A stretch of DNA of 45,122 bases from a virus: UHGV virus genome UHGV-0415709; one strand, 5' to 3'. Of the stretch, positions 2,774 through 34,237 are shown piece after piece (the stretch's first letter is position 1; the number at the start of each line of letters is the position of its first letter). The notes under the pieces are model-generated. The model searched no databases. It was given only the letters and a program-made list of their open reading frames with translations, and was not told the origin of the DNA. The translations under genes were made by a program, and so were the position numbers.

Positions 2774-2961
2774 TGATGATTCTCCTTTTCCGTTATTAGG
2801 TTATTTGTAGGTGTGTAACCGTCCACCAACGGTTGCCATTTTGTAGGACTTGACTTGTCCAAAAACGCACATGCCGGAAATTGCATCCGCTTTTCAACCT
2901 CCAGGCTGTTCACGCTATGCGCTAGAACCTGTTTCTTTTAAGGACATGTGCTATAGGAGGG

Positions 2962-11368: not shown

Positions 11369-11578
11369 TTATGCCAAGAAATACCCATTTTCCTTTGCCG
11401 TATTCCATTCTGTTTCCCTAAATACCAATTCCGTTTTGTCTTTCTGTCCATAGCAATCATATTCCAGAAAAACTTTCAGTAGTTTTTCCTTAGATGGTTT
11501 TCCGAACTTTTTTTCATATTCCTCTGTTATATCTTCAATTTTATAGACAGACAAAATAAAATGTTCTAATACATTCAT
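11369..11578 (-). CDS. hypothetical protein (69 aa)
   Basis: ORF between terL and portal; ATGA overlap with terL stop. Confidence 0.4.
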   Translation of the reverse strand: MNVLEHFILSVYKIEDITEEYEKKFGKPSKEKLLKVFLEYDCYGQKDKTELVFRETEWNTAKENGYFLA

Positions 11579-15048: not shown

Positions 15049-16095
15049 TTACACATTAACTCTTTCTCTTACTGAACGAAGAGTGCGCGGGTTAGACTGT
15101 GCATAATAACGTGCCGTAACTCCTGGGTCAGCATGTCCCATAATTTCCTGTATGGTCCCAATATCAACTCCTCTGTTTTTCAGATTCATTCCCAGCGTCT
15201 TACGTGACTTATGCGGATATACCCGACATGTTAGGCCGGCTCTCTTTCTTATGGTTTTCAATATCGCCCGAAATCCACAAGTAGTCATCTTTCCATACGG
15301 TTTTCTGGAGCGCGGGAACATATATGGACAATCATCTTTCCTGCTGTCCAAATACAGGCTATAGTAATACCGCGCATCATCATCCAGATAGATTGTCCGA
15401 TATCTTCCGCTTTTCTCTCCCTGTATCCAAATATCGCCGGTTCTCATGTCTATCTGGTCCAGGGTTATTTCCGCAATCTCACCTATCCTGGCTCCAGTAC
15501 TGCGAAGTACCTCCAGCAAGGCCCTCTCACGGATATTTTTGCACGCATCCCTTAACCTTGCAGATTCTTCCGGGCTGTAGTAATCAATTGGTTTAATGGG
15601 TACTTTCTTAGCTGGGATAGGTTCTACTGGATTGTCTGTAATTAATTTTTCAAGGCGCATCCATGTAAAGAAGGCTGACAGAAATCGGCGCTCGTTATTA
15701 TAGGTACTGGGTTGGTTTTTCTTTCCTCCTCTGGACACATTTCTGATTTCATATCGCGATAAATACCAATCAATATCAGTGGTATCCATCCGGTCCAGTG
15801 ATTTTGTGCTTATCTCTGTCAGCAATCTTCGTATGGAATTAAGATAGTTTTCTTTGGTTCCTCTTGCCAAATCACGCTTTTTTATCAGGAACAACTGTAT
15901 TATGTACTGATTCCTCTGGCTTATATCATCCTTTCTTTCTGCTGGGAGTGTAGTTATTTCCTCCATATTGACTCTAACTAATTCCTGTTGCATCACATTT
16001 TGCAGAATGGTAAGAGTCTGCTGCTCCATGATATATAAGGCCATTGCTACCAGTACATTGTTGATTATTTCAGCTTTTATTGTCTGTGTACTCAT
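15049..16095 (-). CDS. tyrosine site-specific recombinase (second integrase/Xer-like), located among early genes
   Basis: Catalytic motifs R..IGEIAEITLDQID, HKSRKTLGMNL, MGHADPGVTARYYAQ; probable start ATG 16095 (MSTQTIK, RBS gaggagga) rather than track start 16197. Confidence 0.7.
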   Translation of the reverse strand: MSTQTIKAEIINNVLVAMALYIMEQQTLTILQNVMQQELVRVNMEEITTLPAERKDDISQRNQYIIQLFLIKKRDLARGTKENYLNSIRRLLTEISTKSLDRMDTTDIDWYLSRYEIRNVSRGGKKNQPSTYNNERRFLSAFFTWMRLEKLITDNPVEPIPAKKVPIKPIDYYSPEESARLRDACKNIRERALLEVLRSTGARIGEIAEITLDQIDMRTGDIWIQGEKSGRYRTIYLDDDARYYYSLYLDSRKDDCPYMFPRSRKPYGKMTTCGFRAILKTIRKRAGLTCRVYPHKSRKTLGMNLKNRGVDIGTIQEIMGHADPGVTARYYAQSNPRTLRSVRERVNV

Positions 16096-16127
16096 AATTA
16101 TATCCTCCTCATTCGTATTGATTTTCA

Positions 16128-16157
16128 CGTCTGAGTAAGGTATGATATACTCAGACG
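16128..16157. promoter_or_regulatory. perfect 10-bp inverted repeat CGTCTGAGTA-N10-TACTCAGACG upstream of recombinase start
   Basis: cgtctgagta 16128-16137, tactcagacg 16148-16157; no U-tract after it on minus strand, so operator or RNA structure rather than canonical terminator. Confidence 0.4.
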
Positions 16158-16263
16158 TATTTACGGGAGCGGTGGAATCATCTTGGCGAGTGACCACCGC
16201 TCAGTTTTTATTCTGTGCATATAATTTGTTCCTCAATTTGTTTTTTCTTAGGTTTAGAAAATG

Positions 16264-16425
16264 TTAATTTTTAGAATCAATATAATCGCTTCTCACTTCG
16301 TCAAAATTATGACATTCATCCTCTGTTTCCTCGCAGCAATTATTGTATCCGTAACACCTTATACACTCCTTGCAGGTCTCGCCAATATCAAAACCAAAAT
16401 CCAGTATTTCATTCATGGTAATCAT
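16264..16425 (-). CDS. Cys-rich mini-protein, 53 aa (below ORF-track cutoff)
   Basis: ATG 16425 with RBS ccaggagg; MITMNEILDFGFDIGETCKECIRCYGYNNCCEETEDECHNFDEVRSDYIDSKN; stop TAA 16264-16266. Confidence 0.4.
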   Translation of the reverse strand: MITMNEILDFGFDIGETCKECIRCYGYNNCCEETEDECHNFDEVRSDYIDSKN

Positions 16426-16453
16426 ATTTTTTCCTCCTGGTTTCCTGGAAATC

Positions 16454-16630
16454 CTAATCTACTGAATAACACAAATACTCTATAGATAAACTCACGCCCA
16501 TTTCCCTGCCACACTTTGGACACTCCACGACACCAGCGTCCATATTTGAGTTGCAAGCCTGCTTACCATCAAAAACGTGATGGCAATAGATGCACTCACA
16601 ATCATCAATCCTCTGTGTATTGTCTGGCAT
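16454..16630 (-). CDS. zinc-ribbon mini-protein, 58 aa (below ORF-track cutoff)
   Basis: ATG 16630 with RBS agaggtgaag; MPDNTQRIDDCECIYCHHVFDGKQACNSNMDAGVVECPKCGREMGVSLSIEYLCYSVD. Confidence 0.4.
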   Translation of the reverse strand: MPDNTQRIDDCECIYCHHVFDGKQACNSNMDAGVVECPKCGREMGVSLSIEYLCYSVD

Positions 16631-16863
16631 ATCTTCACCTCTTTTATTACTAAAAATGTTAATCTACTGCCCCATAGATAAAGGGCAAATACAAAAGTCC
16701 CATAATGTCGTCAACTACCCTCGGCTGTATCTGGTGGTATATTAATAGCTCCAAACCTTGCCATACTAAAGCAAGCACTATGTACCACCAGCATGTTTTT
16801 AATATCTTATCCACTGCCAGTACCTCCGTTTAGTAAATCATAAATTTCAGTTTTGGTGCACAA

Positions 16864-17331: not shown

Positions 17332-17336
17332 ATGTT

Positions 17337-17510
17337 TTAATTCTCTGGGATATCCTTTTCCAGAATATACTCCAGGCAGGTGTGATTATTTTCTAAATAT
17401 GTTTCATTGCACATGACCACTATCCAACCTTTATCCAGGCTTTCTCTAAGAGCAGTCATAGGATTTGTATAATTGTTCGGATATGTTCTCACTACCTTCT
17501 GTTTTTTCAT
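17337..17510 (-). CDS. small conserved protein, 57 aa, copy A of a duplicated gene
   Basis: ATG 17510 with RBS ggagg; MKKQKVVRTYPNNYTNPMTALRESLDKGWIVVMCNETYLENNHTCLEYILEKDIPEN; ~90% nt identity to 24279-24452. Confidence 0.5.
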   Translation of the reverse strand: MKKQKVVRTYPNNYTNPMTALRESLDKGWIVVMCNETYLENNHTCLEYILEKDIPEN

Positions 17511-17543
17511 TCCACGCCTCCATCAAAATGTTAATTTGAATAC

Positions 17544-17954: not shown

Positions 17955-17982
17955 ATAGTTTCTCCTTTTCCATAGTTAAATG

Positions 17983-19026
17983 TTAATTCTCAGGAACAAC
18001 ACCAGGATAGCTATAAATACTCATTTGCCCCTGTGCCTCCCATGTTGTCCATGGTATTCCTGCGTAATCAAGTACATCTGCCATACCAAGCCCTCCCTGG
18101 CAAACTGGTTTCATACAGAATTGATATTGGTTAGGATATTGTTCCGCCATCCGTTGAAACCGGTTTGGTTCTGGCTCCAGATGTGCCCCGAACGCACAAA
18201 ACATGCATCCAGTACGTTGTTCTCCCGTGGTATAATACGTGCCATCTTCGTGCTGTTTAATATCTCCATACACCGAACATATCTTCACACTATTTTCCAC
18301 AACATAGCGAAGGATATCCTGTTTAGTCCAGAATCCCAATGGCTGACTCTTAATGGTCTTTCCATCGTAGACATTGCATCCAGTATGCGCATACTGGTGG
18401 GCACGTTTAAATCCTTCATCCTGTGTAATTCCAATATATGGGACACATCCGGTATCTTTAACAAATTTTTCAAACGGTTTTTTCTTCATGATTTCGCAGC
18501 ATTTATCTGACGTCTCAAATGGCGCGTTTACAAGATACTGCCACTTTTTCGCCAACATCCCAAACTTCCCACGTTCATCTCCATTGAGCAAATAATTTCT
18601 GTGTCTATCTGATAAGTTTCCATGTCTTAGCTTATAGACCTTTCTGGCTGTCTCTTTGCTTACTATTGGATAACCATAGTTCAAAATAACCTGCCGAAAA
18701 GAAATTCGTTTCCCATCTTTATCTTCTGGATATATTTCCCGATATTCTCCGCTGGCCTGCCGGGCAAAGCTCACTATCTCTGGAAACTCCAATCCTGTAT
18801 TTGAAAAAACTGCCGGAACATCATCACCTATGGTTTTCCGAATCATATGTAACAGCACTGTACTGTCCAGTCCACCCGAATAGCTTAGATATACCTGCCC
18901 ACCCCAATTGTCATACCATTCCTGTATTCTGGTTCTGCTGAGGCGCAGCTTCGTGGGCCAGTCCAAATATTTTCGCTGGCTGAACTGCCACGCGTTTAAA
19001 CTCAAATCATCCTCTTTTATAAACAT
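17983..19026 (-). CDS. PAPS-reductase-like / PP-loop ATP pyrophosphatase superfamily protein (DndC-like)
   Basis: PP-loop SYSGGLDSTVLLH near N-terminus; C-terminal Cys cluster (CMFCAFG...CMKPVCQGG). Confidence 0.65.
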   Translation of the reverse strand: MFIKEDDLSLNAWQFSQRKYLDWPTKLRLSRTRIQEWYDNWGGQVYLSYSGGLDSTVLLHMIRKTIGDDVPAVFSNTGLEFPEIVSFARQASGEYREIYPEDKDGKRISFRQVILNYGYPIVSKETARKVYKLRHGNLSDRHRNYLLNGDERGKFGMLAKKWQYLVNAPFETSDKCCEIMKKKPFEKFVKDTGCVPYIGITQDEGFKRAHQYAHTGCNVYDGKTIKSQPLGFWTKQDILRYVVENSVKICSVYGDIKQHEDGTYYTTGEQRTGCMFCAFGAHLEPEPNRFQRMAEQYPNQYQFCMKPVCQGGLGMADVLDYAGIPWTTWEAQGQMSIYSYPGVVPEN

Positions 19027-21548: not shown

Positions 21549-22370
21549 CTATCCTCTCATTCCTTCTATAAGCGCTTTCCGGTTCTGCTCTGCTATCAGT
21601 TCCCTAACGGATTCTTCCGGGAATGGCAGTTGGAATGTATGTTCCTTGATTCTACTGGTTATCCTGTCATCATATCGCAAGTCCTGCAGACTTAGATTGC
21701 TGGTATACATCGTTATCAGCTTGTCCTGGTGCCGTCCATTTATGATGCTGTAAAACCGTTCTCCTATCCAGTCCCTTGGAATCTCTGTTCCGAAATCATC
21801 TATCACCAAGACCTGGACGGTGGATAACGCTCTTAACAGGTCGCTCTCGCTTCTGTCCTTATCATCCCATGTAGCCTTAATCTCGTTGATAATCTGCATA
21901 GAGCCGGCAAACTTAACCTGCATCCTGTATGTACTGACCATCTCGTTTGCTATGCTTGCGGCCATTCGTGTCTTGCCTGACCCCTTGGTCCCGGAATACA
22001 AGTACAGTCCCATCCCGTCCTTCCGCATTCCTTCCAGATTGTCCAGATAATATTTAATGGCTGCACCAGTATTCCTGATTATCTTCTGGCTCTCATTCTT
22101 CCGGTATACCCCAAAATCGAAGGAGCGTATGTCCAGGTTTTTAAATGCTTCTGGTATGTTCGCAAATTCAAGCTTTCTGTCCGCTATCTGCCGTTCTACC
22201 AGCCCGCAATCGCATCTGTATCCGTTTTCCCGGCCTTCCTCGTCCCACCAGTACACCCACCCTTTACCGTGGCATATGGGGCAGACATCAGAATCCGGTA
22301 AATCCTTCTCCGGCTCCTTCGAGGTAGTCATCGCTATATGTTTGCGTTCCTCCTGTATTCTGCTGACCAT
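21549..22370 (-). CDS. DnaC/IstB-like AAA+ helicase loader with N-terminal zinc cluster
   Basis: Walker A GTKGSGKT, Walker B LVIDDFG; CPICHGKGW...CDCG; track start 22535 overlaps organizer gene, so start set at MVSRIQ (22370) or MTTSKE (22334). Confidence 0.7.
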   Translation of the reverse strand: MVSRIQEERKHIAMTTSKEPEKDLPDSDVCPICHGKGWVYWWDEEGRENGYRCDCGLVERQIADRKLEFANIPEAFKNLDIRSFDFGVYRKNESQKIIRNTGAAIKYYLDNLEGMRKDGMGLYLYSGTKGSGKTRMAASIANEMVSTYRMQVKFAGSMQIINEIKATWDDKDRSESDLLRALSTVQVLVIDDFGTEIPRDWIGERFYSIINGRHQDKLITMYTSNLSLQDLRYDDRITSRIKEHTFQLPFPEESVRELIAEQNRKALIEGMRG

Positions 22371-23094
22371 CTCCTGTAACGGGTCCACTGCCTCCACCTC
22401 CTGTATAATTAGCATCCAGATAATCCACATATCCGCTGTTAAAAAATGTACTTCCATTCTGCGGCTTCCTCCAGGATGCATCCCGCTTAAGGTCATACTT
22501 GTATCTTTCAATACACCTCTTAAGCTCATCCTCACCCACTTTCAGGAGCTTCTGCTTCTGGGTATCGGATACCTGTCCCTTCCCCTTCTTGTGTGGGTAC
22601 AGCTTCCACAAGGTTTCAAACAAGGCAGATGCCTGCTGCTTCCTGTCGCCGGATGCACTATATATATTATCTTCTTTCTTTATTTCTTTATTTCTTTCTT
22701 CTATTGTTGTCGTTCGTTTGTCGTTAGAATGTCGCTCGCCTGTCGCCTGTGTGTCGTCTTGCCTGTCGTCCGACTGGTACAAGTCATAGTTTGTTATTGT
22801 AAATACGCTATATTTGTTTGTCGCCTTGCTTGTCACTTCGCCTGTCGTTTTTAGATGGGAAATTCCTGTCCTAATCTCCCTTTCCGTAAGCCCTGTTTCG
22901 GATGCAAGGTTTTTGATGGATGATACAAAAGAGCCACGCGGGATAGTTGTACCCATAAATTTTCCATCCTTCCAGTTGGCCTTCAAGAGCATATGGATGA
23001 ATAAAACCTTCGTGTTTATGTCCTGATACCATTCCCAGTCCAGGAACTTGCGGTAAAGCTTAATATGTCCATCCATCCTATCACCTGCTATCAA
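22288..23094 (-). CDS. replisome organizer / replication initiator (DnaD-like N-domain)
   Basis: N-terminal KLYRKFLDWEWYQDINTKVLFIHMLLKANWKD pattern of phage replisome organizers; contains iteron array within coding sequence. Confidence 0.65.
   Translation of the reverse strand: MIAGDRMDGHIKLYRKFLDWEWYQDINTKVLFIHMLLKANWKDGKFMGTTIPRGSFVSSIKNLASETGLTEREIRTGISHLKTTGEVTSKATNKYSVFTITNYDLYQSDDRQDDTQATGERHSNDKRTTTIEERNKEIKKEDNIYSASGDRKQQASALFETLWKLYPHKKGKGQVSDTQKQKLLKVGEDELKRCIERYKYDLKRDASWRKPQNGSTFFNSGYVDYLDANYTGGGGSGPVTGDGQQNTGGTQTYSDDYLEGAGEGFTGF
22640..22850. repeat. iteron array plus AT-rich unwinding element (candidate lytic origin) inside organizer gene
   Basis: At least 8 copies of YYTGTCGYY within ~200 bp; adjacent AT-rich run 22660-22705. 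Confidence 0.5.
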
Positions 23095-23896: not shown

Positions 23897-23965
23897 TCTG
23901 ACCAGTACTAAATTCCGTTGTATGTATCATCCCGTAAGGGGAATAGATACCAAATGTTAACTTTC

Positions 23966-24151: not shown

Positions 24152-24179
24152 CCCGTTTTCCCTCACAAAAATGCTAAGT

Positions 24180-24271
24180 TGGCGGCGGCCGGAGTCGAAC
24201 CGGCACCCTCTTACTTTCCACCATGGTCTGTCCGGGGAGTTGAACCCCGCCCTGTGTACCACACACCGCCA
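24180..24271 (-). ncRNA. tRNA-like structured element, copy 1 (two T-arm hairpins, 7-8 bp terminal acceptor-like stem, ends ...GCCGCCA)
   Basis: Minus strand: terminal stem GGCGGUG/CGCCGCC; hairpins CGGGG-UUCAACU-CCCCG and GCCGG-UUCGACU-CCGGC with canonical T-loop sequence; no canonical cloverleaf found. Confidence 0.45.
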
Positions 24272-24278
24272 CTAATTT

Positions 24279-24452
24279 TTAATTCTCCGGAACATCCTTT
24301 TCCAGAATATACTCCAAACAAGTGTGATTATTTTCTAAATATGTATTGTTACACATAACCACTAACCAACCTTTATCAAGGCTTTCTCTAAGAGCATTCG
24401 TTGGATTTGTATAATTGTGCGGATACGTTCTCACTACCTTTTGTTTTTTCAT
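24279..24452 (-). CDS. small conserved protein, 57 aa, copy B of duplicated gene
   Basis: ATG 24452 (RBS aggagg); MKKQKVVRTYPHNYTNPTNALRESLDKGWLVVMCNNTYLENNHTCLEYILEKDVPEN; stop 8 nt from tRNA-like element. Confidence 0.5.
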   Translation of the reverse strand: MKKQKVVRTYPHNYTNPTNALRESLDKGWLVVMCNNTYLENNHTCLEYILEKDVPEN

Positions 24453-24463
24453 TTAACCTCCTA

Positions 24464-25093
24464 TTAATTCTCCTCAAACTTGATACCATATACCTTATAT
24501 TTGCTCTCAAACTCTGTCATCCCTATGTTATGCACTTCTGTATGGTGCTGCCGGCATAGACATATTTTCCGATAATCCGAATCATCAACCTTTCTCCGGT
24601 CATTCCCCATGCCAATTGTGTCTACATGGTGTATCTCTCCCTCTCGACCGCATATGGCGCACTTCCGAAGTTTTAAACATGCATACAGATAATGGCCTAT
24701 ATCATCGGTACGGTTAAGTGCAAAATCCAGCAGCGGTATTCCCTGTTCCAGCGCATAATCCAGCATAGTATTAATAAATTCCCTGGCAGTATCCATAGAA
24801 CAATCAGACAGGGAAAAATATCCGCATCCGGTCCGGTTAATATGCAAATACTTAAGCCATTCTTTCTCGACCTCCGGCACATTACCGGAATAGGCGGAGA
24901 TATCATTGACCGTGGCATAAATCTTTCGGCGCTGGTCGGAACTGATGTGTCTGCCATCGTCAAGCCATATGCTGCAACTATTCATGTGCTTCTCAACAAT
25001 CGGTTCCATGAGATTCTTCCCAGGAATAAATATCTGCAAATATGTCCCCTCAGGAACCAGCTTGTATGCTGTTATATCCGCTGACTCATGCAT
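24464..25093 (-). CDS. HNH-motif protein (DUF968-like)
   Basis: C-terminal CAICGREGEIHHVDTIG...NDRRK...ICLCRQHHTEVHN fits HNH arrangement. Confidence 0.4.
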   Translation of the reverse strand: MHESADITAYKLVPEGTYLQIFIPGKNLMEPIVEKHMNSCSIWLDDGRHISSDQRRKIYATVNDISAYSGNVPEVEKEWLKYLHINRTGCGYFSLSDCSMDTAREFINTMLDYALEQGIPLLDFALNRTDDIGHYLYACLKLRKCAICGREGEIHHVDTIGMGNDRRKVDDSDYRKICLCRQHHTEVHNIGMTEFESKYKVYGIKFEEN

Positions 25094-25105
25094 ATAATCA
25101 CCTCT

Positions 25106-25804
25106 TTAATTCCAGGGAAGTCCACTATCCTGCATATTATCTGGAGGTGCAGGATTCTCGTTAGAGGGTTTGTCTGGGGTGGACTTGAACCTTTTAATAC
25201 AATCTCTATACTGAGATTCAACCATATCACTAAATTTTTCTACAGCATACAGAGAGCAGATGGCCCTCCAATGTTTACCAGTCCTATCACACTCTGCTAT
25301 CAAATCATTTACCTGATCCTCGGTTAGCTTCTTTTCTTTTGAAATTTTTTCATTTTTTGATTCTGGAATTTGTTCGTTGTTGTATTTAGTCCGGTCTGAA
25401 TCCCAATAAACATCAGCACCAATCCCAAGCTCCTTACATGCTACGGATATAGCATCTGTTGTTGCCATCTTGTAACATTCGTCAGATACATATATTCCAG
25501 ACTTCTCCTTTGATGCAAACATGCTCCCGCCGTTCCCAGCGATTGGTTTAGACCACTCCCCATCAACCTTTATGTATAATTCAATATTTACAAAAGCTGC
25601 TATCTCATTACCTGCTGTTTCCAACCACTGCCTCGTTGGGATGTAGTACCATCCTATCCCACATGGCCCGAACTGCTCAGTAAGGACTTTTATGCGCCAC
25701 ATAGGGTTAATATCGGTCATACCGCTGGTACGGCCTCCCTTAATGGTTTTCTTGGCGCTATCTGGGACAGAACGGACCTTTTCGTATAAGTCAAGATTCC
25801 CCAT
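25106..25804 (-). CDS. Rad52-family single-strand annealing protein
   Basis: YKMATTDAISVACKELGIGADVYW matches Rad52/Rad22 conserved segment (A.TDA..RA....GIG..LY). Confidence 0.55.
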   Translation of the reverse strand: MGNLDLYEKVRSVPDSAKKTIKGGRTSGMTDINPMWRIKVLTEQFGPCGIGWYYIPTRQWLETAGNEIAAFVNIELYIKVDGEWSKPIAGNGGSMFASKEKSGIYVSDECYKMATTDAISVACKELGIGADVYWDSDRTKYNNEQIPESKNEKISKEKKLTEDQVNDLIAECDRTGKHWRAICSLYAVEKFSDMVESQYRDCIKRFKSTPDKPSNENPAPPDNMQDSGLPWN

Positions 25805-26071
25805 CTTTTTCCTCCTTCATGAGCGTTCCAACTATATAGATGACAGCCATTTCAAGTTCCTTTCTTGCAACACTTCCAATAGGCAAGAGTGACTGTCTAT
25901 CCCGGAGATAAGATACCATTGCAGTACCGTCAATCGTCTTGTGTTCCAGATTCATGTTTTATAATCTCCTTATAATGCTGTTTATGATGTTCTCTGTCCT
26001 TCCCCCTGCATTTATCACATTCTTTCCAATGTTCCGGGTCAAGAAAACATCCACAAGAATCACATTTAGAA

Positions 26072-26269
26072 TTATTCATCATGTGTTTTATCCTTAGGAA
26101 CTTTAACCGGTATGCCTCTCAAAATACCGACCAGCACATTACGCTGGGCATATTCATCTGTATCCAAAAAAACCAAAGCTGCATTTACCCGACCTTCAAG
26201 CTCAATAAGCTTTCTATATTCATTGGCCGTAATTTCAACTGTTCTTTCTTCCATCTTGCAAACCTCCAT
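26072..26269 (-). CDS. hypothetical protein (65 aa)
   Basis: ORF only. Confidence 0.3.
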   Translation of the reverse strand: MEVCKMEERTVEITANEYRKLIELEGRVNAALVFLDTDEYAQRNVLVGILRGIPVKVPKDKTHDE

Positions 26270-26441
26270 AATCTCTGATATAATCAGACTGAGTTATTTT
26301 TTGTATTCGGTCGTTTAGCTCTGTCAAGCTGACGACCTTTTTTATTGGCCTACCATATCCGGTGTACCGACTGGCATTTATCATTGCCCCGTCCCGGTTG
26401 GTTCCATTGCGGCGGCGGCTCATAATATCACCGCCATGCAT
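26235..26441 (-). CDS. hypothetical basic protein (68 aa)
   Basis: ORF only. Confidence 0.3.
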   Translation of the reverse strand: MHGGDIMSRRRNGTNRDGAMINASRYTGYGRPIKKVVSLTELNDRIQKITQSDYIRDYGGLQDGRKNS

Positions 26442-26546
26442 ATCACCAGCAATCCGCTTAAGACCATAACCGCAGCGGTTAAACCGCGAATAATCATCCG
26501 GTCTTTCTGCCGCGAGCTTAAATGTGTTTTTCCGACAGGTATGTAT

Positions 26547-26774
26547 TCAAGCTGTTTCAACAAATTTCATCTCCTTCCCAGTCAATTGCAGAAGTATCTG
26601 CAATTTTTCTATTGTCAGTTTTTGAGGGTTGGCTTTACGCTCTCTAAACGAGCTTGTGCAAAACCCCAAATACAAGGCCAGCTCATTATCATCAAAGTTA
26701 TTTCTTATTTTGGCTTCTTCTATCAGTAGCCGTATGCTGTCCTTTTGCCATTCTGACGGCTTCTTAGATTTCAC
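26547..26774 (-). CDS. hypothetical HTH-like small protein (75 aa)
   Basis: ORF; helix-rich. Confidence 0.35.
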   Translation of the reverse strand: MKSKKPSEWQKDSIRLLIEEAKIRNNFDDNELALYLGFCTSSFRERKANPQKLTIEKLQILLQLTGKEMKFVETA

Positions 26775-26794
26775 TCCTACTTCCTCCTTAACTT

Positions 26795-27139
26795 TCAGTT
26801 TGGTTCATCATGATATTTCAATGCCTGGCCGCAAGTTGGACAGAAATAATCATCATCCTCAACCACATCTGAATCGCATACCGGACAGAGGCACTCTGCT
26901 TCATCACCAGCGGAATAATATGATTGATATGCCGGTGTCCACACCACCATTCTCGGCTCGCTTTTGTCTTTTAAATACTGGACTTCTCCTGGCTCCAGGC
27001 CAGTATCCTCATAGGCTTTCAATCTCTCAATTAATTCGCGGTATGGATTACCTTTCGTGATAATTGCGGGCAATCCAGTATCACTTATGGAATAAGCCAA
27101 CAGTCTGCCTTGGTCATCAACCTTCGTTAATCGTTCCAT
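26795..27139 (-). CDS. protein with C-terminal zinc ribbon (114 aa)
   Basis: ATG 27139 with RBS ggaggt; CPVC...CPTC; track's N-terminal extension reads through tRNA-like element and is rejected. Confidence 0.45.
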   Translation of the reverse strand: MERLTKVDDQGRLLAYSISDTGLPAIITKGNPYRELIERLKAYEDTGLEPGEVQYLKDKSEPRMVVWTPAYQSYYSAGDEAECLCPVCDSDVVEDDDYFCPTCGQALKYHDEPN

Positions 27140-27166
27140 TTTACCTCCTTCTGAAAATTTTAAAGT

Positions 27167-27257
27167 TGGCGGCGGCCGGAGTCGAACCGGCACCCTCTTA
27201 CTTTCCACCATGGTTATGCCAGGAATCGAACCTGGACCTGTGTGCCACACACCGCCA
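27167..27257 (-). ncRNA. tRNA-like structured element, copy 2
   Basis: Identical 52-bp core with copy 1; first hairpin CCAGG-UUCGAUU-CCUGG differs from copy 1 by compensatory substitutions that preserve pairing and T-loop consensus. Confidence 0.45.
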
Positions 27258-27405
27258 TTAACTCTTAAAATACTGGTAAAGCGCTATTGCTATAATTATT
27301 AGTATCTCTGCAATAACAGTGCAAACAACTCCTGCCAAAAATGGATTGATGTACATCGTTTATCTCCTTCTCTTCCTCTTGATTCCCCGGCTCTTGCCAT
27401 TCTTT

Positions 27406-27672
27406 TTAATCCTGGCTCTCTGTCCCATTCTCTAAGTCTCCTTGTGTTCCTGTATTGATGTTGTTCAGTCCACTGCCGTCCTGGGAAACATAGTCATATG
27501 TACCGGCTGTATAAAGCCATGCAGCATTGGTGCCTATCAGCGCCGCCAGCGTTACCAGGAATGCTATAAACCAATGTTTTGCATTCCTCTTGCTCTGCTC
27601 GATTACCTCTACAGCAAAATACTGCTCCAGCCCTTCCCATGTTGGCTTGTCCTTCTGGTTTTCAATGTTCAT
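27406..27672 (-). CDS. small membrane protein (88 aa)
   Basis: Central TM helix HWFIAFLVTLAALIGTNAAWLY. Confidence 0.4.
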   Translation of the reverse strand: MNIENQKDKPTWEGLEQYFAVEVIEQSKRNAKHWFIAFLVTLAALIGTNAAWLYTAGTYDYVSQDGSGLNNINTGTQGDLENGTESQD

Positions 27673-27841: not shown

Positions 27842-28186
27842 ATGTCAACCTCGCAAGACATGTCTACCTTATACTTATCTCTCCAAGAAAAGATTGCCTT
27901 GAAATATATAAAATTTCATTCAAAGCTACATATTAATGATATAGAAAACCACAAACATTATAATTCTTTGTATAAAAAGCACTTAATAATAAATATTCCA
28001 ACAATTAATGGTAGGCCACGTCCTACAGACTTTTATAAAATATCAGACTTTGGAAAAGATTATATCAATTACAAAAATGAATGCCGATTTGAACAATTGT
28101 TTGTCCCTGTTATTGTTACCATCCTAACCAATATAGCAATAGACGTGTTGCCAAAGTTGTTAAAACTGATACAAGAACTATTGTAA
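27842..28186 (+). CDS. AT-rich plus-strand membrane protein (114 aa), putative moron
   Basis: Opposite orientation to surrounding early genes; C-terminal TM (LFVPVIVTILTNIAIDVL); low GC; RBS aaaggag. Confidence 0.4.
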   Translation: MSTSQDMSTLYLSLQEKIALKYIKFHSKLHINDIENHKHYNSLYKKHLIINIPTINGRPRPTDFYKISDFGKDYINYKNECRFEQLFVPVIVTILTNIAIDVLPKLLKLIQELL

Positions 28187-28757: not shown

Positions 28758-28961
28758 TTAAGAAATAAGCTTGTCTACTTTAACTTTTAAAACATCTGCA
28801 ACCGCTTTAAGACTTTTAATAGTCGGACTTGATTTATTCCATTTGCTGATAGTCCCATTTTTCAAACCGGCGGCGACTTCAACTGAGCGAATACTTATAC
28901 CTCTTTCATCGCATATTCTTTGAATGCAATCATAAATAAGCAAATATTTCCCCCCTTTCAT
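28758..28961 (-). CDS. Cro-like XRE HTH regulator
   Basis: 67 aa HTH (GISIRSVEVAAGLKNGTISKWNK) divergent from CI-like gene across operator region. Confidence 0.65.
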   Translation of the reverse strand: MKGGKYLLIYDCIQRICDERGISIRSVEVAAGLKNGTISKWNKSSPTIKSLKAVADVLKVKVDKLIS

Positions 28962-28984: not shown

Positions 28985-29165
28985 TTTAATATTGACAATA
29001 CGTAGATTATATTCTATAATTTAGTTACCAGCAAAACTATAGATGACAACGTAAAGTCTATATTAATGAGGTAGATTATTTTCTACTCTTCATAACTGTA
29101 TTATACAGAATATAGTCTACGTTGTCAATAGTTGAAGTAGATTTTTTTCTACTTTTTGAAAGGAG
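28985..29165. promoter_or_regulatory. genetic-switch intergenic region with multiple TTGACAAYRCGTAGA operator half-sites and divergent promoters
   Basis: ttgacaatacgtagat and tctacgttgtcaat form inverted pairs; a third site atgacaacgtaaagtcta lies between. Confidence 0.5.
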
Positions 29166-29171
29166 TAAACT

Positions 29172-29663
29172 ATGACAACATATGAAGTAATTGCAAAGCT
29201 ATGTAATGAACACGGTATCGCAATTACTGCCTTAGAAAAAGAATTAGGATTCGGGAGAGGCTATATAGGGAAATTTAAAACCAAAGGTACAATACCAAGC
29301 GCTAAAAAATTGCAGCAAATTGCAGATTATTTTAAAGTAACTATGGGATACTTGATGGATGATAATGCTAAACAAGAAATGAATGTTCTTATGCCCCCAA
29401 AAGCAGAACTGCAAATATTACTTTTTTACAATAAATTAAATCCTACTGGACAAGCAGAAGCTACTAAGCGGGTTTATGAGCTAACACAAATAAAAGAATA
29501 TACCAACGTAGCAACGGAAACCGCAGATAAAATCATATCTTATAATGATATTGTTCAAATGGACATACCAATGGCTGCGCATGAAAACGAAGGGGCTACA
29601 ATGGAAATGAAAGAGGAGGATTTAAACAACGCATTAAAACTTGTACAAAAAGACAGAACGTGA
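29172..29663 (+). CDS. CI-like XRE-family repressor
   Basis: N-terminal HTH (YEVIAKLCNEHGIAITALEKELGFGRGYIGKFK) plus C-terminal domain, divergent from cro-like gene. Confidence 0.7.
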   Translation: MTTYEVIAKLCNEHGIAITALEKELGFGRGYIGKFKTKGTIPSAKKLQQIADYFKVTMGYLMDDNAKQEMNVLMPPKAELQILLFYNKLNPTGQAEATKRVYELTQIKEYTNVATETADKIISYNDIVQMDIPMAAHENEGATMEMKEEDLNNALKLVQKDRT

Positions 29664-31990: not shown

Positions 31991-33079
31991 TTGAAGGAGG
32001 AAAGGAAAATGACAAAGAAAGCCCCGAAAAAGAAAATAGGCGAACTACCATCCAAAAATATCCGTGTACAATTATACTTATATACGGATGAGAAAGGTAA
32101 ACGGCATTACAAAAGTTTTGTTGCCCCATCACGCAAAATCGCACAAGAAATGGCAGCTAGATGGAAATTAGATATGAAGGACAAGCCCATAGAACAATAC
32201 AACGTACCGGAAGAGGACGAAGAAGATATTACAGTTAATGATGCTATTGAACGCTATTTAAACGCCAAGAGCGGTGTTTTAAGCCCTTCTACTCTTAGAG
32301 GGTACACTGGTCTGCAAAGACAGTATTTCGGCGGCGCATTTGGCCAAAAAAAGCTTTCAGAACTGACAAGTCCATCTGTGCAAATATGGGTAAGTAATTT
32401 AGCTGCAAAAAAACTATCTCCAAAGACGGTAAGAAATGCCTATGGTCTGTTATCTCCAACGCTGGAAATGTTTGCACCCGAATTAACTTTAAACGTTAAA
32501 CTGCCGCAGAAAAAACGTCCTAACTTATATTGCCCAAATGACAATGATATTAAAAAGTTGCTGGACGCTATTAAAGGCACCGATTTGGAGATAGCTGTAT
32601 TACTGGCTGCGTTTGGTCCACTTAGGAGAGGGGAGATAAGCGCTCTAACCGATAAGGACGTGGATGGAAAAATTATCCATGTAAGAGATAATATGGTCAA
32701 GGGGCCAGACAATCAATGGTATATCAAACAGCCAAAGACAGATGACAGTACAAGGGATGTAGAAATGCCCGCATTTGTAATTGACCGGATATCTGAAAAA
32801 AAAGGAAAGCTGGTTGATATGAACCCGGATTACATCACACACCGATTCGGGCGAGTACTCAAAAAGATTGACATACCCCATTTCCGCTTTCACGACCTCC
32901 GGCATTATGCTGCATCCATTATGCACGCTATAGGGATACCGGACCAATATATTTTGCAGCGGGGAGGATGGGCCAGCGATAATATTATGAAAACCGTATA
33001 CAGAAATGCAATTGACTCTGAAACCGTCCGGCAAAATAAAAAAATTAATAAGCACTTTGAAAAATTGAACAGCATGTAA
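31991..33079 (+). CDS. int: phage integrase (tyrosine recombinase)
   Basis: C-terminal catalytic signature HFRFHDLRHYAAS...GGWASDNIMKTVY; adjacent to repressor module and repeat-rich attP-like region. Confidence 0.8.
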   Translation: MKEERKMTKKAPKKKIGELPSKNIRVQLYLYTDEKGKRHYKSFVAPSRKIAQEMAARWKLDMKDKPIEQYNVPEEDEEDITVNDAIERYLNAKSGVLSPSTLRGYTGLQRQYFGGAFGQKKLSELTSPSVQIWVSNLAAKKLSPKTVRNAYGLLSPTLEMFAPELTLNVKLPQKKRPNLYCPNDNDIKKLLDAIKGTDLEIAVLLAAFGPLRRGEISALTDKDVDGKIIHVRDNMVKGPDNQWYIKQPKTDDSTRDVEMPAFVIDRISEKKGKLVDMNPDYITHRFGRVLKKIDIPHFRFHDLRHYAASIMHAIGIPDQYILQRGGWASDNIMKTVYRNAIDSETVRQNKKINKHFEKLNSM

Positions 33080-33367: not shown

Positions 33368-34108
33368 TTATATTGAATCAGAATCCTCTATGTACCAGAT
33401 TTCCTGCGCGCCATTATCCTGGCTATGCCAGCAAGCGCCCTCTAGCGGACCATCCGGTGTTGGGTCGAAATAGTACCAGTCTCCTGAGCCGTCCTCCGGG
33501 TCGCACACAGTGCCATTCCAGCGGTGCCAGCTGGTGCAGGCATAACCATCCTTATTAAATAAGTACCAATGGTGATTTATGACACACCACTTATTAGCCG
33601 GGTAAGTTCCATCTGGTTTGCGGTACCACCAGCCGTTATTATCCTTAATCCACCCAGTGCGCTCCTGCTCAGTCCAGGTTTTCATGAATTGTTCTGGATT
33701 TTGGTACAATTTCTTGATACCACTGGTGGAGCTGCCCCAATCAGGAAGTTGAAAATGTGGCTTGTCCACAGGAGACTTCCAGTTTCCTCCCCATTCAAGG
33801 CCGATAGATACGCCAATAGCACCTACACGGTCAAAGAAGCCGCCTATTTCGTTATAGGCTCCAGCGCCATCATTGCGGAATATATCAAAAGCTGTTCCCC
33901 ACTGATGATAGGAGCTGTAGCTGCTGCCAGGAGCATTAGTTACAATGTTACCCGGTTTAGTCCTACCCTGAGCGTATAAAGCATCCTGTTCTGCCACGGT
34001 CCGCAGTGTCTCACCTATTTTAATTTTTAATCCCTGTTTATTGCATTCGTCCACCAATTGACCTGCTAAAAGCTGTAAGCGTGGATGGCACAATGTGATA
34101 TCTCTCAT
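33368..34108 (-). CDS. endolysin: M15 (VanY-like) zinc peptidase N-domain + choline-binding-type cell-wall-binding repeats
   Basis: SYHQWGTAFD and DKPHF zinc-ligand motifs; C-terminal GW/WYY repeats (GWIKDNNGWWYRKPDGTY, WYLFNKDGY, GDWYYFDP); start set at ATG 34108 (RBS ggagga), track start 34153. Confidence 0.7.
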   Translation of the reverse strand: MRDITLCHPRLQLLAGQLVDECNKQGLKIKIGETLRTVAEQDALYAQGRTKPGNIVTNAPGSSYSSYHQWGTAFDIFRNDGAGAYNEIGGFFDRVGAIGVSIGLEWGGNWKSPVDKPHFQLPDWGSSTSGIKKLYQNPEQFMKTWTEQERTGWIKDNNGWWYRKPDGTYPANKWCVINHHWYLFNKDGYACTSWHRWNGTVCDPEDGSGDWYYFDPTPDGPLEGACWHSQDNGAQEIWYIEDSDSI

Positions 34109-34237
34109 AATCATCCTCCAATTATGCTGTTTTTCTGCTGCTCTGTAATCCATCCAATTGACACAGCCCGGTTGAGTTCGGAAACCGTTAATGGCCCTTT
34201 ACCATTGTTATATAGCCTTTTTAATGTTGTATACATT

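What the first reader, a model, noticed from the sequence alone, without database searches (positions are those of the whole stretch)
24176..27257. Two tRNA-like structured elements in direct orientation with an identical 52-bp core, bracketing a 2.9 kb cassette
Elements at 24180-24271 and 27167-27257 (minus strand) each fold into a 7-8 bp terminal acceptor-like stem ending ...GCCGCCA plus two hairpins whose loops match the tRNA T-loop consensus (UUCAACU/UUCGAUU and UUCGACU with G-C closing pairs). The 3'-proximal 52 bp are identical between copies (24176-24227 = 27163-27214). The 5' hairpin differs by compensatory changes that preserve pairing (CGGGG...CCCCG vs CCAGG...CCUGG). No canonical D or anticodon arm could be drawn, so these are not ordinary tRNAs. 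Because tyrosine integrases commonly target tRNA 3' halves, the two identical cores could act as recombination sites for the 2.9 kb segment between them (HNH protein, Rad52 SSAP, small genes). Alternatives are tRNA-like punctuation processed by RNase P/Z, or Y-RNA/YrlA-like tRNA mimics, which are frequent in phages. Each element sits ~25 nt upstream of a small Cys-rich gene.
Basis: partly seen in the sequence, partly recalled or inferred. Interest (0 to 1): 0.8.

Follow-up and report, generated by a model that had tools for sequence, protein, structure and literature searches.

The report
Phage tRNA-like RNA with two T-loops
The two repeats are copies of a conserved, roughly 90-base tRNA-mimicking RNA gene carried by gut Lachnospiraceae phages; they are not ordinary tRNAs and not integrase sites, and what the RNA does is still unknown.

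Summary
Two co-oriented elements on the minus strand (24180-24270 and 27167-27256) share an identical 52-bp 3' part. Each has an acceptor stem, a canonical T arm and an inner hairpin whose loop is a second T-loop.

ARAGORN finds no tRNA. Rfam's tRNA model scores 26 bits, below its threshold of 29, and no other Rfam family fits.

The element is a real family. About 75 viral or metagenome contigs, one of them a Lachnospiraceae MAG, carry 21 sequence variants. Compensatory changes occur in the acceptor stem (G1-C72 to A-U, plus an eighth pair -1:73) and in the inner arm. Many relatives add an optional hairpin capped by tetraloops that are mostly of UNCG or GNRA type. G-U pairs fit only the gene-sense strand.

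The element always lies between genes, inside operons, with at least 16 upstream and 16 downstream contexts in many combinations.

The flanks that look like target-site duplications are a general intergenic motif (ATTARNATTT), also present at junctions that lack the element.

No host tRNA shares the core, and the copies are far from both recombinase genes, so the attachment-site idea is not supported.

Most likely this is a tRNA mimic derived from a class II tRNA, cut out of the early transcript by RNase P and RNase Z. That processing is inferred, not shown.

The parts
24180..24270 (-). Copy A of the tRNA-like RNA (91 nt, G1 = 24270, A73 = 24180). U(-1) at 24271 can pair with A73.
   Evidence: Covariance model R1 scores it 110.7 bits. 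Rfam tRNA scores 26.2 bits, below the threshold of 29, and aligns only the acceptor stem and T arm. Sequence.
27167..27256 (-). Copy B of the tRNA-like RNA (90 nt, G1 = 27256, A73 = 27167). U(-1) is at 27257.
   Evidence: Covariance model R1 scores it 122.4 bits. Rfam tRNA scores 26.1 bits. Sequence.
24233..24249 (-). Copy A inner hairpin: CGGGG-UUCAACU-CCCCG (the second T-loop).
   Evidence: Read from the sequence. Columns 23-39 of alignment A2 are 100% paired, and two pairs change on both sides.
27219..27235 (-). Copy B inner hairpin: CCAGG-UUCGAUU-CCUGG (the second T-loop).
24188..24204 (-). Copy A canonical T arm: GCCGG-UUCGACU-CCGGC.
   Evidence: Aligned to the T arm of Rfam tRNA with high posterior probability. 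The stem is invariant across the family; the loop varies only within UUCRANU, apart from one outlier (UUCGCCU in L344).
27175..27191 (-). Copy B canonical T arm.
24205..24229 (-). Copy A linker ACCAUGGUGGAAAGUAAGAGGGU. The GAAAGUAAGAG part is almost invariant across the family.
   Evidence: Alignment A2. The ACC can pair with the GG just 5' of the inner arm (columns 20-21 with 59-60). No complementary target was found in the window.
27192..27215 (-). Copy B linker, the same sequence as in copy A.
24169..24177 (-). Intergenic boundary motif (TTAGCATTT) 3' of copy A. A similar stretch, AATTAAAAATTAGT, lies 5' of the copy at 24271-24284.
   Evidence: The same motif occurs at junctions without the element.
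27155..27163 (-). Intergenic boundary motif (TTAAAATTT) 3' of copy B. The 5' flank, TTTTAAGAGTTAAT at 27257-27270, overlaps the stop codon of the 32-aa ORF.
29100..29128 (-). Consensus sigma-70 promoter (TTGACA-17-TATAAT) at the head of the leftward early region that contains both copies.
   Evidence: 12 of 12 matches. A Cro-like HTH gene lies just downstream at 28758-28961. That transcription runs uninterrupted through both copies was not shown.
17512..17543 (-). An 'empty' junction. The intergenic region ahead of the paralogous 57-aa gene holds one copy of the boundary motif and no element. In L006, L026 and L155 the same gene is preceded by the element.

Best explanation
Each element is a gene for a ~90-nt tRNA-like non-coding RNA that lies inside the phage's leftward early region.

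Architecture:
- a 7-8 bp acceptor stem, presumably stacked on the T arm as in tRNA;
- a short G-G-containing strand where the D arm should be;
- an inner hairpin that occupies the anticodon-arm position but carries a second T-loop;
- a 20-27 nt purine-rich, almost invariant linker. Many relatives add a tetraloop-capped hairpin at the variable-arm position.

This layout, together with a T arm that matches tRNA-Leu from memory, suggests descent from a class II tRNA.

Mechanism:
- Shown: it is a conserved, strand-specific, structured RNA family that tRNA finders do not call.
- Inferred from what is known about the substrate requirements of RNase P, RNase Z and the CCA-adding enzyme (an acceptor stem stacked on a T arm is enough): the polycistronic transcript is cut at both ends of the element. 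This releases a stable tRNA mimic that receives CCA, and it separates the upstream and downstream mRNAs.
- Speculative: the released RNA acts in trans as a mimic or decoy for some factor that recognises the acceptor/T-arm half of tRNAs.

The identical 52 bp are simply the shared 3' half of two family members. Because the copies are the only homology between otherwise different modules, they also serve as crossover points. I regard that as a by-product.
For: Family and conservation:
- 34 IMG/VR contigs hold an exact 28-mer of the core, 41 metagenome contigs hold a degenerate 22-mer, and one Lachnospiraceae MAG carries the element.
- There are 21 distinct variants, all scoring above 100 bits with model R1, whereas ordinary tRNAs score 30 bits or less.

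Structure:
- Pair 1:72 is G-C in 19 variants and A-U in 2.
- Pair -1:73 is U-A in 14, A-U in 2, U-G in 2 and G-U in 1.
- The inner arm has 2 pairs changed on both sides and is 100% paired.
- The optional hairpin has 6 pairs with compensatory changes. Its loops are UGCG, UACG, UGAG, GAAA, GAUA and, in one variant, the pentaloop UCCAG.
- In total 98.1% of cells are paired, against 27-57% when the partners are slid by 1-3 columns.

Strand:
- U6-G67 is a wobble pair in all 21 variants, and the hairpin has 11 wobble cells. On the opposite strand these would be A-C mismatches.

T-loops:
- Both loops vary only within UUCRANU, apart from one outlier.

Context:
- The element is always intergenic and co-oriented with a downstream RBS and start codon, in at least 16 contexts.
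- It lies downstream of a consensus early promoter.
- A genuine tRNA-Met without an encoded CCA sits in the same orientation 1.4-1.8 kb from the element in L009 and L329. If it shares the element's transcript, which was not checked, tRNA-type processing already operates there.
- U at -1 is usual. From memory, this is the nucleotide bacterial RNase P prefers.

Possible expression evidence:
- A published screen reports an 86-nt candidate structured RNA in Lachnospiraceae phages among the most highly expressed in human-gut small-RNA-seq (PMC10690425). Whether it is this element could not be checked.
Against: - No transcript or end-mapping data were available, so processing, CCA addition and stability are all inferred.
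- Folding energy is not better than that of shuffled sequence.
- The family is narrow and very similar in sequence, so several compensatory changes may trace back to a few events, or to swapping of whole hairpins.
- An eighth pair at -1:73 and some leader-trailer complementarity could shift or hinder RNase P cleavage.
- No partner protein, antisense target or consistent neighbouring gene was found, so the trans function is a guess.
- The most conserved part is the unpaired linker, which the model does not explain.
Confidence: 0.55

Rival explanations
1. The element is purely cis-acting mRNA punctuation or a stabiliser, like the t-elements of plant mitochondria. The tRNA-like fold exists only to direct RNase P and RNase Z cuts, or to block exonucleases, so that neighbouring cistrons have different stabilities. 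The excised RNA itself has no function.
For: It always lies between cistrons of an operon and in the gene sense, ending 27-28 nt before the next start codon in this window. No target or partner was found. Two copies occur in one operon.
Against: An acceptor stem plus T arm would be enough for punctuation. Yet the second T-loop hairpin, the nearly invariant 20-nt linker and the tetraloop-capped extra hairpin are all conserved. Most gene junctions in these phages manage without the element.
Confidence: 0.2
2. The element works at the DNA level, in one of three ways: an attachment or recombination site for a tyrosine recombinase, an attC-like folded site flanking gene cassettes, or a miniature mobile element with terminal inverted repeats and target-site duplications.
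For: - The acceptor stem is by nature a terminal inverted repeat.
- The flanks look like 9-bp direct repeats (TTAAnATTT), and 'empty' sites exist at window 17512-17543 and in L222.
- At least 16 x 16 flanking contexts recombine at the element.
- The element occupies a different slot in L312.
- The phage encodes two tyrosine recombinases.
Against: - The flanking motif is a general intergenic motif, present once at many junctions that never held the element. The two flanks of a copy match each other no better than they match the flanks of other copies.
- No host genome carries the core.
- The copies are far from both recombinase genes.
- The conserved features are T-loops, wobble pairs valid on one strand only and RNA tetraloops.
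- Cassette shuffling occurs equally at junctions without the element.
Confidence: 0.08
3. The element is a functional but aberrant tRNA, for example a class II Leu- or Ser-like species. It would be aminoacylated and perhaps used in decoding, with the inner hairpin as the anticodon arm (CAA in copy A, CGA in copy B).
For: - The inner hairpin sits where an anticodon arm would, with a 7-nt loop and U at position 33.
- CAA (Leu) and CGA (Ser) both belong to class II tRNAs, which have long variable regions.
- A73 is, from memory, a LeuRS identity element.
- ARAGORN calls architecturally similar elements in large phages tRNA-Leu(caa) (L143 and L049).
Against: - There is no D stem.
- Position 37 is a pyrimidine, and the loop varies exactly as a T-loop does (R57, N59), switching 'anticodon' between near-identical copies.
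- The 'variable region' is 27-40 nt.
- Neither ARAGORN nor the Rfam tRNA threshold accepts any of the 21 variants.
Confidence: 0.05
4. The element is a member of a known tRNA-mimic family: YrlA/Y RNA (Ro60 partner), or a reduced tmRNA tRNA-like domain.
For: The topology (acceptor stem, D-loop-like strand without a stem, T arm) resembles the tRNA-like domain of tmRNA. Weak Rfam matches to tmRNA exist (15.4 bits).
Against: - tmRNA scores 15 bits against a threshold of 47, and there is no YrlA match at E<=10.
- The third pair is C3-G70, not G3-U70.
- There is no tag reading frame, and the short AUG/GUG frames differ between variants.
- No Ro/TROVE protein is among the 30 proteins scanned.
Confidence: 0.03
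5. The elements are inert remnants of a duplication.
For: The two copies in this window are near-identical over 52 bp. The MFE is unremarkable.
Against: About 75 contigs carry the element, with 21 variants. Their flanks are unrelated while the element is conserved, and stems keep pairing through compensatory and wobble changes.
Confidence: 0.02

Closest known systems
t-elements of plant mitochondria (Forner et al. 2007, PMC1920247, found)
   Same: tRNA-like structures embedded in longer transcripts and lacking a usable anticodon domain. Their acceptor/T-arm half is recognised by RNase P and RNase Z and so defines mRNA ends.
   Different: They are organellar rather than phage-borne and are unrelated in sequence. 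Here an additional T-loop hairpin and an invariant linker are conserved, which suggests more than a cleavage signal. Processing has not been shown here.
mascRNA / MEN-beta tRNA-like RNAs (Rfam RF01684)
   Same: A small tRNA-like RNA cut from a long transcript by RNase P and RNase Z and then given CCA. It has a minimal D region and no decoding function.
   Different: They are eukaryotic. The Rfam score here is 18-22 bits against a threshold of 42.5, with several mismatched acceptor pairs in the alignment. mascRNA has one T-loop, not two.
tRNA-like domain of tmRNA (RF00023)
   Same: Acceptor stem, then a D-loop-like strand with GG but no D stem, and a canonical T arm.
   Different: There is no G3-U70 pair, no mRNA-like frame and no pseudoknots. 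The score is 15 bits against a threshold of 47.
YrlA (bacterial and phage Y RNAs; Chen et al. 2014, PMC4201824, listed)
   Same: A non-coding tRNA mimic with a T arm, also reported in some phages.
   Different: No Ro-binding helix was recognised, there is no Rfam match, and no Ro60 gene is among the proteins scanned.
Class II tRNAs (Leu/Ser), and the ~90-nt 'UAGUCAGG...CCUGACUAC' elements in tRNA arrays of large phages (L143, L078, L069, L061)
   Same: Same order of parts and similar length. The T arm GCCGG-UUCGAGU-CCGGC found in some variants equals, from memory, that of E. coli tRNA-Leu(CAA). L143 has an intact D arm and the same ...ACC(C)AUGGU...AGAG... linker.
   Different: Our family has lost the D stem, has a T-loop in place of an anticodon loop, and carries a 20-27 nt insertion before the T arm. 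It is not called as a tRNA. Homology to the L143 type is suggested by alignment, but the score is only at tRNA level (23.6 bits).
'Group X': ~130-150-nt multi-T-loop RNAs of high-GC phage contigs (L163, L171, L173, L177, L180, L190, L204), apparently undescribed
   Same: tRNA acceptor stem plus T arm, an inner T-loop hairpin flanked by a GGU/ACC mini-helix, and the motif (U)UAACCAUGGUGG right after it.
   Different: Three T-loop hairpins and two further hairpins. GC-rich hosts. No significant covariance-model score against our family. Not in Rfam or GenBank phages.
Candidate structured RNA DNAVirus_6258 (PMC10690425)
   Same: 86 nt, found in Caudovirales of Lachnospiraceae, restricted to the human gut and highly expressed in small-RNA-seq.
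   Different: Identity with this element could not be tested. No sequence or supplement is held.

Membership tests
Canonical tRNA | 7-bp acceptor stem and a T arm with the loop U54-U55-C56-R57-A58 | tested here: met
   Rfam tRNA aligns these parts with high posterior probability. The acceptor stem covaries.
Canonical tRNA | D arm (3-4 bp stem with a G18-G19 loop) | tested here: not met
   Only 13-14 nt (UGUGGYACACAGGN) lie between the acceptor and the inner arm. The possible hairpin GUGU-GGY-ACAC is broken by G9A and U10C variants.
Canonical tRNA | Anticodon arm with U33 and a purine at position 37 | tested here: not met
   The loop is UUCAACU, UUCGAUU or UUCGACU. Position 37 is C or U, and the variation follows T-loop rules.
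Canonical tRNA | Recognised by tRNA gene finders or reaches the Rfam gathering score | tested here: not met
   ARAGORN finds 0 tRNAs in the window and none at the element in 10 related loci. RF00005 scores 26.1-26.2 bits against a threshold of 29.
tmRNA | G3-U70 pair, tag reading frame, pseudoknots, Rfam threshold | tested here: not met
   The third pair is C3-G70. Only about 55 nt lie between the acceptor strands. Short frames are not conserved between variants. The score is 15.4 bits against 47.
YrlA / Y RNA | Ro-binding helix formed by the RNA ends, plus a tRNA-like module; usually linked to an rsr (Ro60) gene | tested here: not met
   No Rfam match at E<=10 on either copy. There is no TROVE-domain protein among the 30 window proteins scanned. 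Not every ORF was scanned.
mascRNA-like | Rfam RF01684 gathering score | tested here: not met
   18.5 and 22.1 bits against 42.5, with 3-4 mismatched acceptor pairs.
Phage attP / tRNA-targeting integrase site | The core is identical to the 3' part of a host tRNA or tmRNA gene | tested here: not met
   The 25-mer GCCGGTTCGACTCCGGCCGCCGCCA is found once in 185,579 species-representative genomes, and that hit is the element itself. This was an exact-match test only.
Phage attP / tRNA-targeting integrase site | Lies next to the integrase gene, one site per genome | tested here: not met
   The integrases are at 31991-33079 and 15049-16197, while the copies are at 24.2 and 27.2 kb. There are two copies here, one in most fetched loci, at varying positions.
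Integron attC-like cassette site | An imperfect palindrome at the 3' end of each cassette, an adjacent integron integrase, conserved R/L boxes | tested here: inconclusive
   The element does sit at cassette junctions, but most junctions lack it. No IntI-type context is present. R/L boxes were not examined. The T-loop and tetraloop conservation points to RNA.
Miniature inverted-repeat transposable element | Terminal inverted repeats, target-site duplications that differ between insertions, and filled versus empty sites | tested here: inconclusive
   Inverted termini (the acceptor stem) and filled/empty pairs exist. However, the 'duplication' is a pre-existing intergenic motif, and the flanks of one copy do not covary.
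RNase P / RNase Z substrate (t-element-like) | Cleavage at the 5' end of the acceptor stem and after the discriminator; CCA addition | not testable with these tools
   The structural prerequisites are present: 12-13 bp of acceptor plus T stem, a T-loop and no encoded CCA. No transcript data are available.

The most novel reading that the evidence does not exclude
The RNA is a dedicated phage-encoded decoy of the acceptor/T-arm half of tRNA. It presents two T-loops, an internal ACCA and, after processing, a 3' CCA end. It soaks up a host factor that recognises tRNA elbows or acceptor ends, for example a tRNA-targeting defence nuclease, a toxin that modifies the CCA tail, or a tRNA-processing or modifying enzyme. 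It travels between phages as a self-contained RNA gene cassette bounded by the ATTARNATTT motif. It would then be one branch of a wider, undescribed class of multi-T-loop tRNA mimics in phages, together with group X and the UAGUCAGG elements.
Probability: 0.15. Interest if true: 0.8.

Novelty: new variant of a known kind. Interest (0 to 1): 0.5.

Why it matters
tRNA mimics are a recurring way for viruses to engage host RNA machinery, and tRNAs are increasingly recognised as targets of bacterial immunity.

This is a conserved family of two-T-loop tRNA-like RNAs lacking a D arm, common in temperate phages of a major group of gut bacteria. It is absent from Rfam and invisible to tRNA finders. If expressed and processed as predicted, it offers several things:
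- a compact natural substrate for studying what RNase P, RNase Z, the CCA-adding enzyme and T-loop-modifying enzymes need;
- a candidate anti-defence or regulatory RNA;
- a marker of module boundaries in phage mosaicism.

If it proves to be only a processing signal, it would still be a bacterial-virus counterpart of the tRNA punctuation seen in mitochondria.

Tried and rejected
- **Helix around the inner arm** (CAC.CAGG with CC.UG.GUG, from the minimum-free-energy fold). It has no compensatory change, and position 47 is U, A or C opposite an invariant A18. Only the GG/CC part stays compatible.
- **D-like hairpin GUGU-GGY-ACAC.** It is broken by G9A and U10C in several variants.
- **Variable-arm pairing ACC/GGU with G63-U65.** It is broken by G63A variants.
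- **T-box-like pairing of the internal UGGN with the element's own NCCA end.** The fourth base does not follow the discriminator across variants.
- **Antisense target in the phage.** There is no match to the complement of the linker at up to 3 mismatches, apart from the copies themselves.
- **Linker as an anti-Shine-Dalgarno binder.** The duplex energy is -13.3 kcal/mol, similar to a real RBS, but 8% of shuffles reach it. Inconclusive.
- **Short ORF starting at the AUG or GUG in the linker.** Frame and peptide differ between variants.
- **Target-site duplication.** It is explained by a general intergenic motif.
- **The motif as a -10 promoter box.** B-type flanks (TAAGAG) do not fit, and there is no conserved -35.
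- **Host tRNA with the same 3' end.** None was found.
- **GenBank phage records.** There was no match to the 3.5-kb region, to copy A, or to group X.
- **Literature search for the sequence itself.** Nothing was found.
- **Gene neighbours of group X.** None were informative.
- **Model R1 against group X and the L143-type elements.** Scores are only at tRNA level, so the wider family rests on architecture and a shared motif.
- **Supplement of PMC10690425.** It is not held.

Full report
**What is in the window.**
Genes around the finding run on the minus strand, and so do both elements. Copy A runs from 24270 (G1) to 24180 (A73). Copy B runs from 27256 to 27167.

The repeat finder confirms the exact identity of 24176-24227 with 27163-27214 and 81% identity of the 5' halves. 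A covariance model finds no third copy in the window.

Each copy reads, 5' to 3':
- GGCGGUG;
- UGUGGYACACAGGN;
- a 5-bp hairpin with loop UUCAACU (A) or UUCGAUU (B);
- a linker ending ...AACCAUGGUGGAAAGUAAGAGGGU;
- GCCGG-UUCGACU-CCGGC;
- CGCCGCC;
- A.

Both hairpin loops fit the T-loop pattern UUCRANY with a G-C closing pair. The final A is position 73, and no CCA is encoded.

**It is not a known RNA.**
ARAGORN reports no tRNA or tmRNA in the 45 kb. At Rfam gathering thresholds only RAGATH-21 and GP20-b appear, and both are far away.

In permissive mode the best match for each copy is the tRNA model at 26 bits (threshold 29). It aligns only the acceptor stem, the last bases of the variable region and the T arm, and skips about 50 nt. 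The next matches are all far below threshold:
- mascRNA, 18-22 bits against 42.5;
- tmRNA, 15 against 47;
- SpF41 sRNA, 18 against 52.

YrlA does not appear at E<=10. Folding energies are no better than those of shuffled sequence.

**It is a conserved family.**
An exact 28-mer of the core occurs in 34 IMG/VR contigs, and a degenerate 22-mer occurs in 41 metagenome contigs, mostly human gut. Among 185,579 species-representative genomes, the T-arm plus acceptor 25-mer occurs once, in a Lachnospiraceae MAG, and that hit is the element itself. GenBank phage records have no match.

There are 21 distinct variants of three kinds:
- A-type;
- B-type;
- a longer C-type with an extra hairpin right after the inner arm.

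All score 105-123 bits with a model built from the first nine variants. Ordinary tRNAs in 100 other phage loci score 30 bits or less.

**Comparative support for structure.**
On the 21-variant alignment (A2) I counted pairs for a named structure. RNAalifold independently predicted the same three helices.

- Acceptor stem: pair 1:72 is G-C in 19 variants and A-U in 2. Position -1 pairs with position 73 in 19 of 21 (U-A 14, A-U 2, U-G 2, G-U 1), so the stem is effectively 8 bp.
- Inner arm: 100% paired, with two pairs changed on both sides.
- Optional hairpin: six pairs, two of them with compensatory changes (U-A to C-G, A-U to G-C). Its loops are UGCG, UACG, UGAG, GAAA and GAUA, plus the pentaloop UCCAG in one variant. 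Most of these resemble the UNCG and GNRA tetraloops typical of structured RNA.
- T arm: the stem is invariant, and the loop varies within UUCRANU apart from one outlier (UUCGCCU in L344).
- Overall: 98.1% of cells pair, against 27-57% when partners are slid by 1-3 columns. No shuffle reached the observed covariation score.

Two caveats apply. The sequences are closely related, and some changes may be single events or whole-hairpin swaps.

Wobble pairs (U6-G67 in all variants, and 11 cells in the extra hairpin) are valid only on the gene-sense strand.

Two further helices suggested by single-sequence folding, the D-like hairpin and a helix enclosing the inner arm, are contradicted or left unsupported by the variants. 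Only a 2-bp GG/CC contact next to the inner arm remains compatible.

**Genomic setting.**
Pfam and PHROG scans show a temperate siphovirus-like genome:
- cI-like gene, 29172-29663 (+);
- Cro-like gene, 28758-28961 (-);
- integrase, 31991-33079 (+);
- HNH nuclease, 24464-25093;
- DnaC-like ATPase, 21549-22535;
- a second tyrosine recombinase, 15049-16197;
- terminase, 11578-12837;
- endolysin, 33368-34153.

A perfect sigma-70 consensus promoter at 29128-29100 (-) heads the leftward early region that holds both copies. That transcription runs uninterrupted through both copies was not shown.

Across the family the element is always intergenic and co-oriented with a downstream RBS and start codon. 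In L009 and L329 a genuine tRNA-Met, also without an encoded CCA, lies 1.4-1.8 kb away in the same orientation.

**Mosaic junctions and the apparent target-site duplication.**
The 41 occurrences first collected have at least 16 upstream and 16 downstream contexts in many combinations. For example:
- the 32-aa ORF upstream of B-type copies is joined to eight different downstream genes;
- the zinc-ribbon gene at 26795-27139 follows a B-type copy here and an A-type copy in L003, L023, L032 and L154.

The flanks look like 9-bp direct repeats (ATTAAnATTT-AGT[element]AC-TTAAnATTT). Element-free versions of the same junctions exist, at window 17512-17543 and in L222.

However, the same motif sits once between stop codon and RBS at many junctions that have no element. 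This holds both in related contigs and in this window, where eight minus-strand sites cluster at 16.2-18.0 kb and next to the copies. The two flanks of a copy also do not match each other better than they match the flanks of other copies.

The simplest reading is that this phage group builds its accessory regions from cassettes that are each preceded by the motif. The RNA gene is one such cassette. In L312 it occupies another slot, next to the second recombinase region. What the motif does is unknown.

**Recombination-site hypothesis.**
Several results argue against a dedicated recombination site:
- no host counterpart of the core exists;
- the copies are not adjacent to either recombinase gene;
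- copy number and position vary;
- the conservation is of an RNA type.

Exchange within the shared core probably happens, as the A/B chimeric contexts suggest, but ordinary homology is enough to explain it.

**Origin and wider relatives.**
The order of parts is acceptor, G-G strand, hairpin, long region, T arm. Together with the variable-arm-like hairpin of C-type copies, this suggests a class II tRNA ancestor that lost its D stem.

From memory, the T arm GCCGG-UUCGAGU-CCGGC of some variants equals that of E. coli tRNA-Leu(CAA). That tRNA's anticodon loop, UUCAAAA, is already close to a T-loop.

Pattern scans turned up two groups with the same layout.
1. The first group is ~90-nt 'UAGUCAGG...CCUGACUAC' elements in the tRNA arrays of large phages. 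One of them, L143, keeps a D arm, shares the ...ACC(C)AUGGU...AGAG... linker, and is called tRNA-Leu(caa) by ARAGORN despite a pyrimidine at position 37.
2. The second group, 'group X', is 130-150-nt RNAs in high-GC phage contigs. They have three T-loop hairpins and the motif UUAACCAUGGUGG directly after the middle one. They are strongly supported by covariation, with 14 of 28 pairs showing compensatory changes. They are absent from Rfam and GenBank phages.

Covariance-model scores between these groups and our family do not exceed tRNA level, so common descent is plausible but unproven.

**Mechanism.**
Shown: this is a conserved, strand-specific, structured tRNA-like RNA gene inside phage operons, and it is not a canonical tRNA.

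Inferred from established enzymology (recalled from memory, not tested here): RNase P, RNase Z and the CCA-adding enzyme all accept an acceptor stem stacked on a T arm, and TruB and TrmA-type enzymes accept T arms. The element should therefore be excised, receive CCA and possibly be modified at both T-loops. Excision would also separate the flanking mRNAs.

The conservation of the second T-loop, the extra hairpin and above all the unpaired linker argues that the excised RNA has a role of its own. A role as mimic or decoy for a factor that reads the tRNA elbow or acceptor end is a guess. No target, partner or consistent neighbour was found.

A published screen lists an 86-nt, highly expressed candidate RNA in Lachnospiraceae phages (PMC10690425). 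If it is the same element, the RNA is at least known to accumulate. I could not check this.

**Verdict.**
- The interpretation as integrase sites is not supported.
- The 'tRNA-like structured RNA' reading is supported.
- The RNase P / RNase Z route is the best mechanistic guess.

This is a new variant of a known kind (a tRNA mimic) and is of moderate interest. It would be of higher interest if a trans-acting decoy function were shown, or if the wider multi-T-loop class proves real.

Noticed in passing
window 16259-16268, 16449-16458, 16654-16663, 17526-17535, 17978-17987, 23952-23960, 24169-24177, 27155-27163 (all minus strand): An intergenic motif, ATTARNATTT, recurs between stop codon and RBS of small accessory genes, here and in related contigs. 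It marks cassette boundaries where gene content differs between phages. Its function is unknown; it could be an RNA-processing, recombination or transcription signal.
   Followed up: partly
L163 3470-3602, L204, L171, L173, L177, L180, L190 (high-GC IMG/VR contigs): 'Group X': RNAs of ~130-150 nt with a tRNA acceptor stem, three T-loop hairpins and the motif UUAACCAUGGUGGCGAAAAGG. 14 of 28 predicted pairs show compensatory changes. There is no Rfam or GenBank phage match.
   Followed up: partly
L143 5644-5731, L078 (1456-1545 on the reverse strand), L069 2390-2481, L061 (9892-9981 on the reverse strand): ~90-nt 'UAGUCAGG...CCUGACUAC' tRNA-like elements, two of them (L143, L069) in loci with many tRNA genes, carry a T-loop sequence in the anticodon-loop position. 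ARAGORN calls L143's copy tRNA-Leu(caa).
   Followed up: partly
Many are extra T-arm modules next to normal tRNAs. A few are collagen-like coding repeats.
   Followed up: no
L163 7989-8069: An 81-nt match to the tmRNA model (60 bits, above threshold) spans model positions 1-374. It looks like a tRNA-like domain with no mRNA part.
   Followed up: no
window 2797-2952 (minus strand): Adjacent Rfam matches above threshold: GP20-b (2797-2860) and RAGATH-21 (2866-2952).
   Followed up: no
window 15049-16197 (minus strand): A second tyrosine recombinase (Phage_integrase family, E = 1e-30) lies inside the middle operon, in addition to the lysogeny integrase at 31991-33079.
   Followed up: no
window 24277-24453 and 17335-17511: A 57-aa gene is present twice (89% nucleotide identity). 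One copy lies directly upstream of element A. The other lies behind an element-free junction that is element-filled in L006, L026 and L155.
   Followed up: partly
window 27258-27356 (minus strand): A 32-aa strongly hydrophobic ORF precedes most B-type copies, and its stop codon lies within the element's conserved 5' flank. It is preceded by an 88-aa ORF with a hydrophobic stretch (27406-27672). No family match was found.
   Followed up: no
window 27842-28186 (+), with inverted repeats 27284-27319 / 28107-28142 and a bidirectional terminator-like hairpin at 28011-28026: A single plus-strand ORF (114 aa) interrupts the leftward early region. It may be a moron-like insertion.
   Followed up: no
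L009 3330-3403 and L329 2204-2277: A canonical tRNA-Met(CAT) without an encoded CCA lies in the same orientation as C-type copies of the element, 1.4-1.8 kb away.
   Followed up: partly
window 28992-29020 (+) and 29100-29128 (-): Two perfect consensus sigma-70 promoters face in opposite directions between the cI-like and Cro-like genes, forming a textbook genetic switch region.
   Followed up: no
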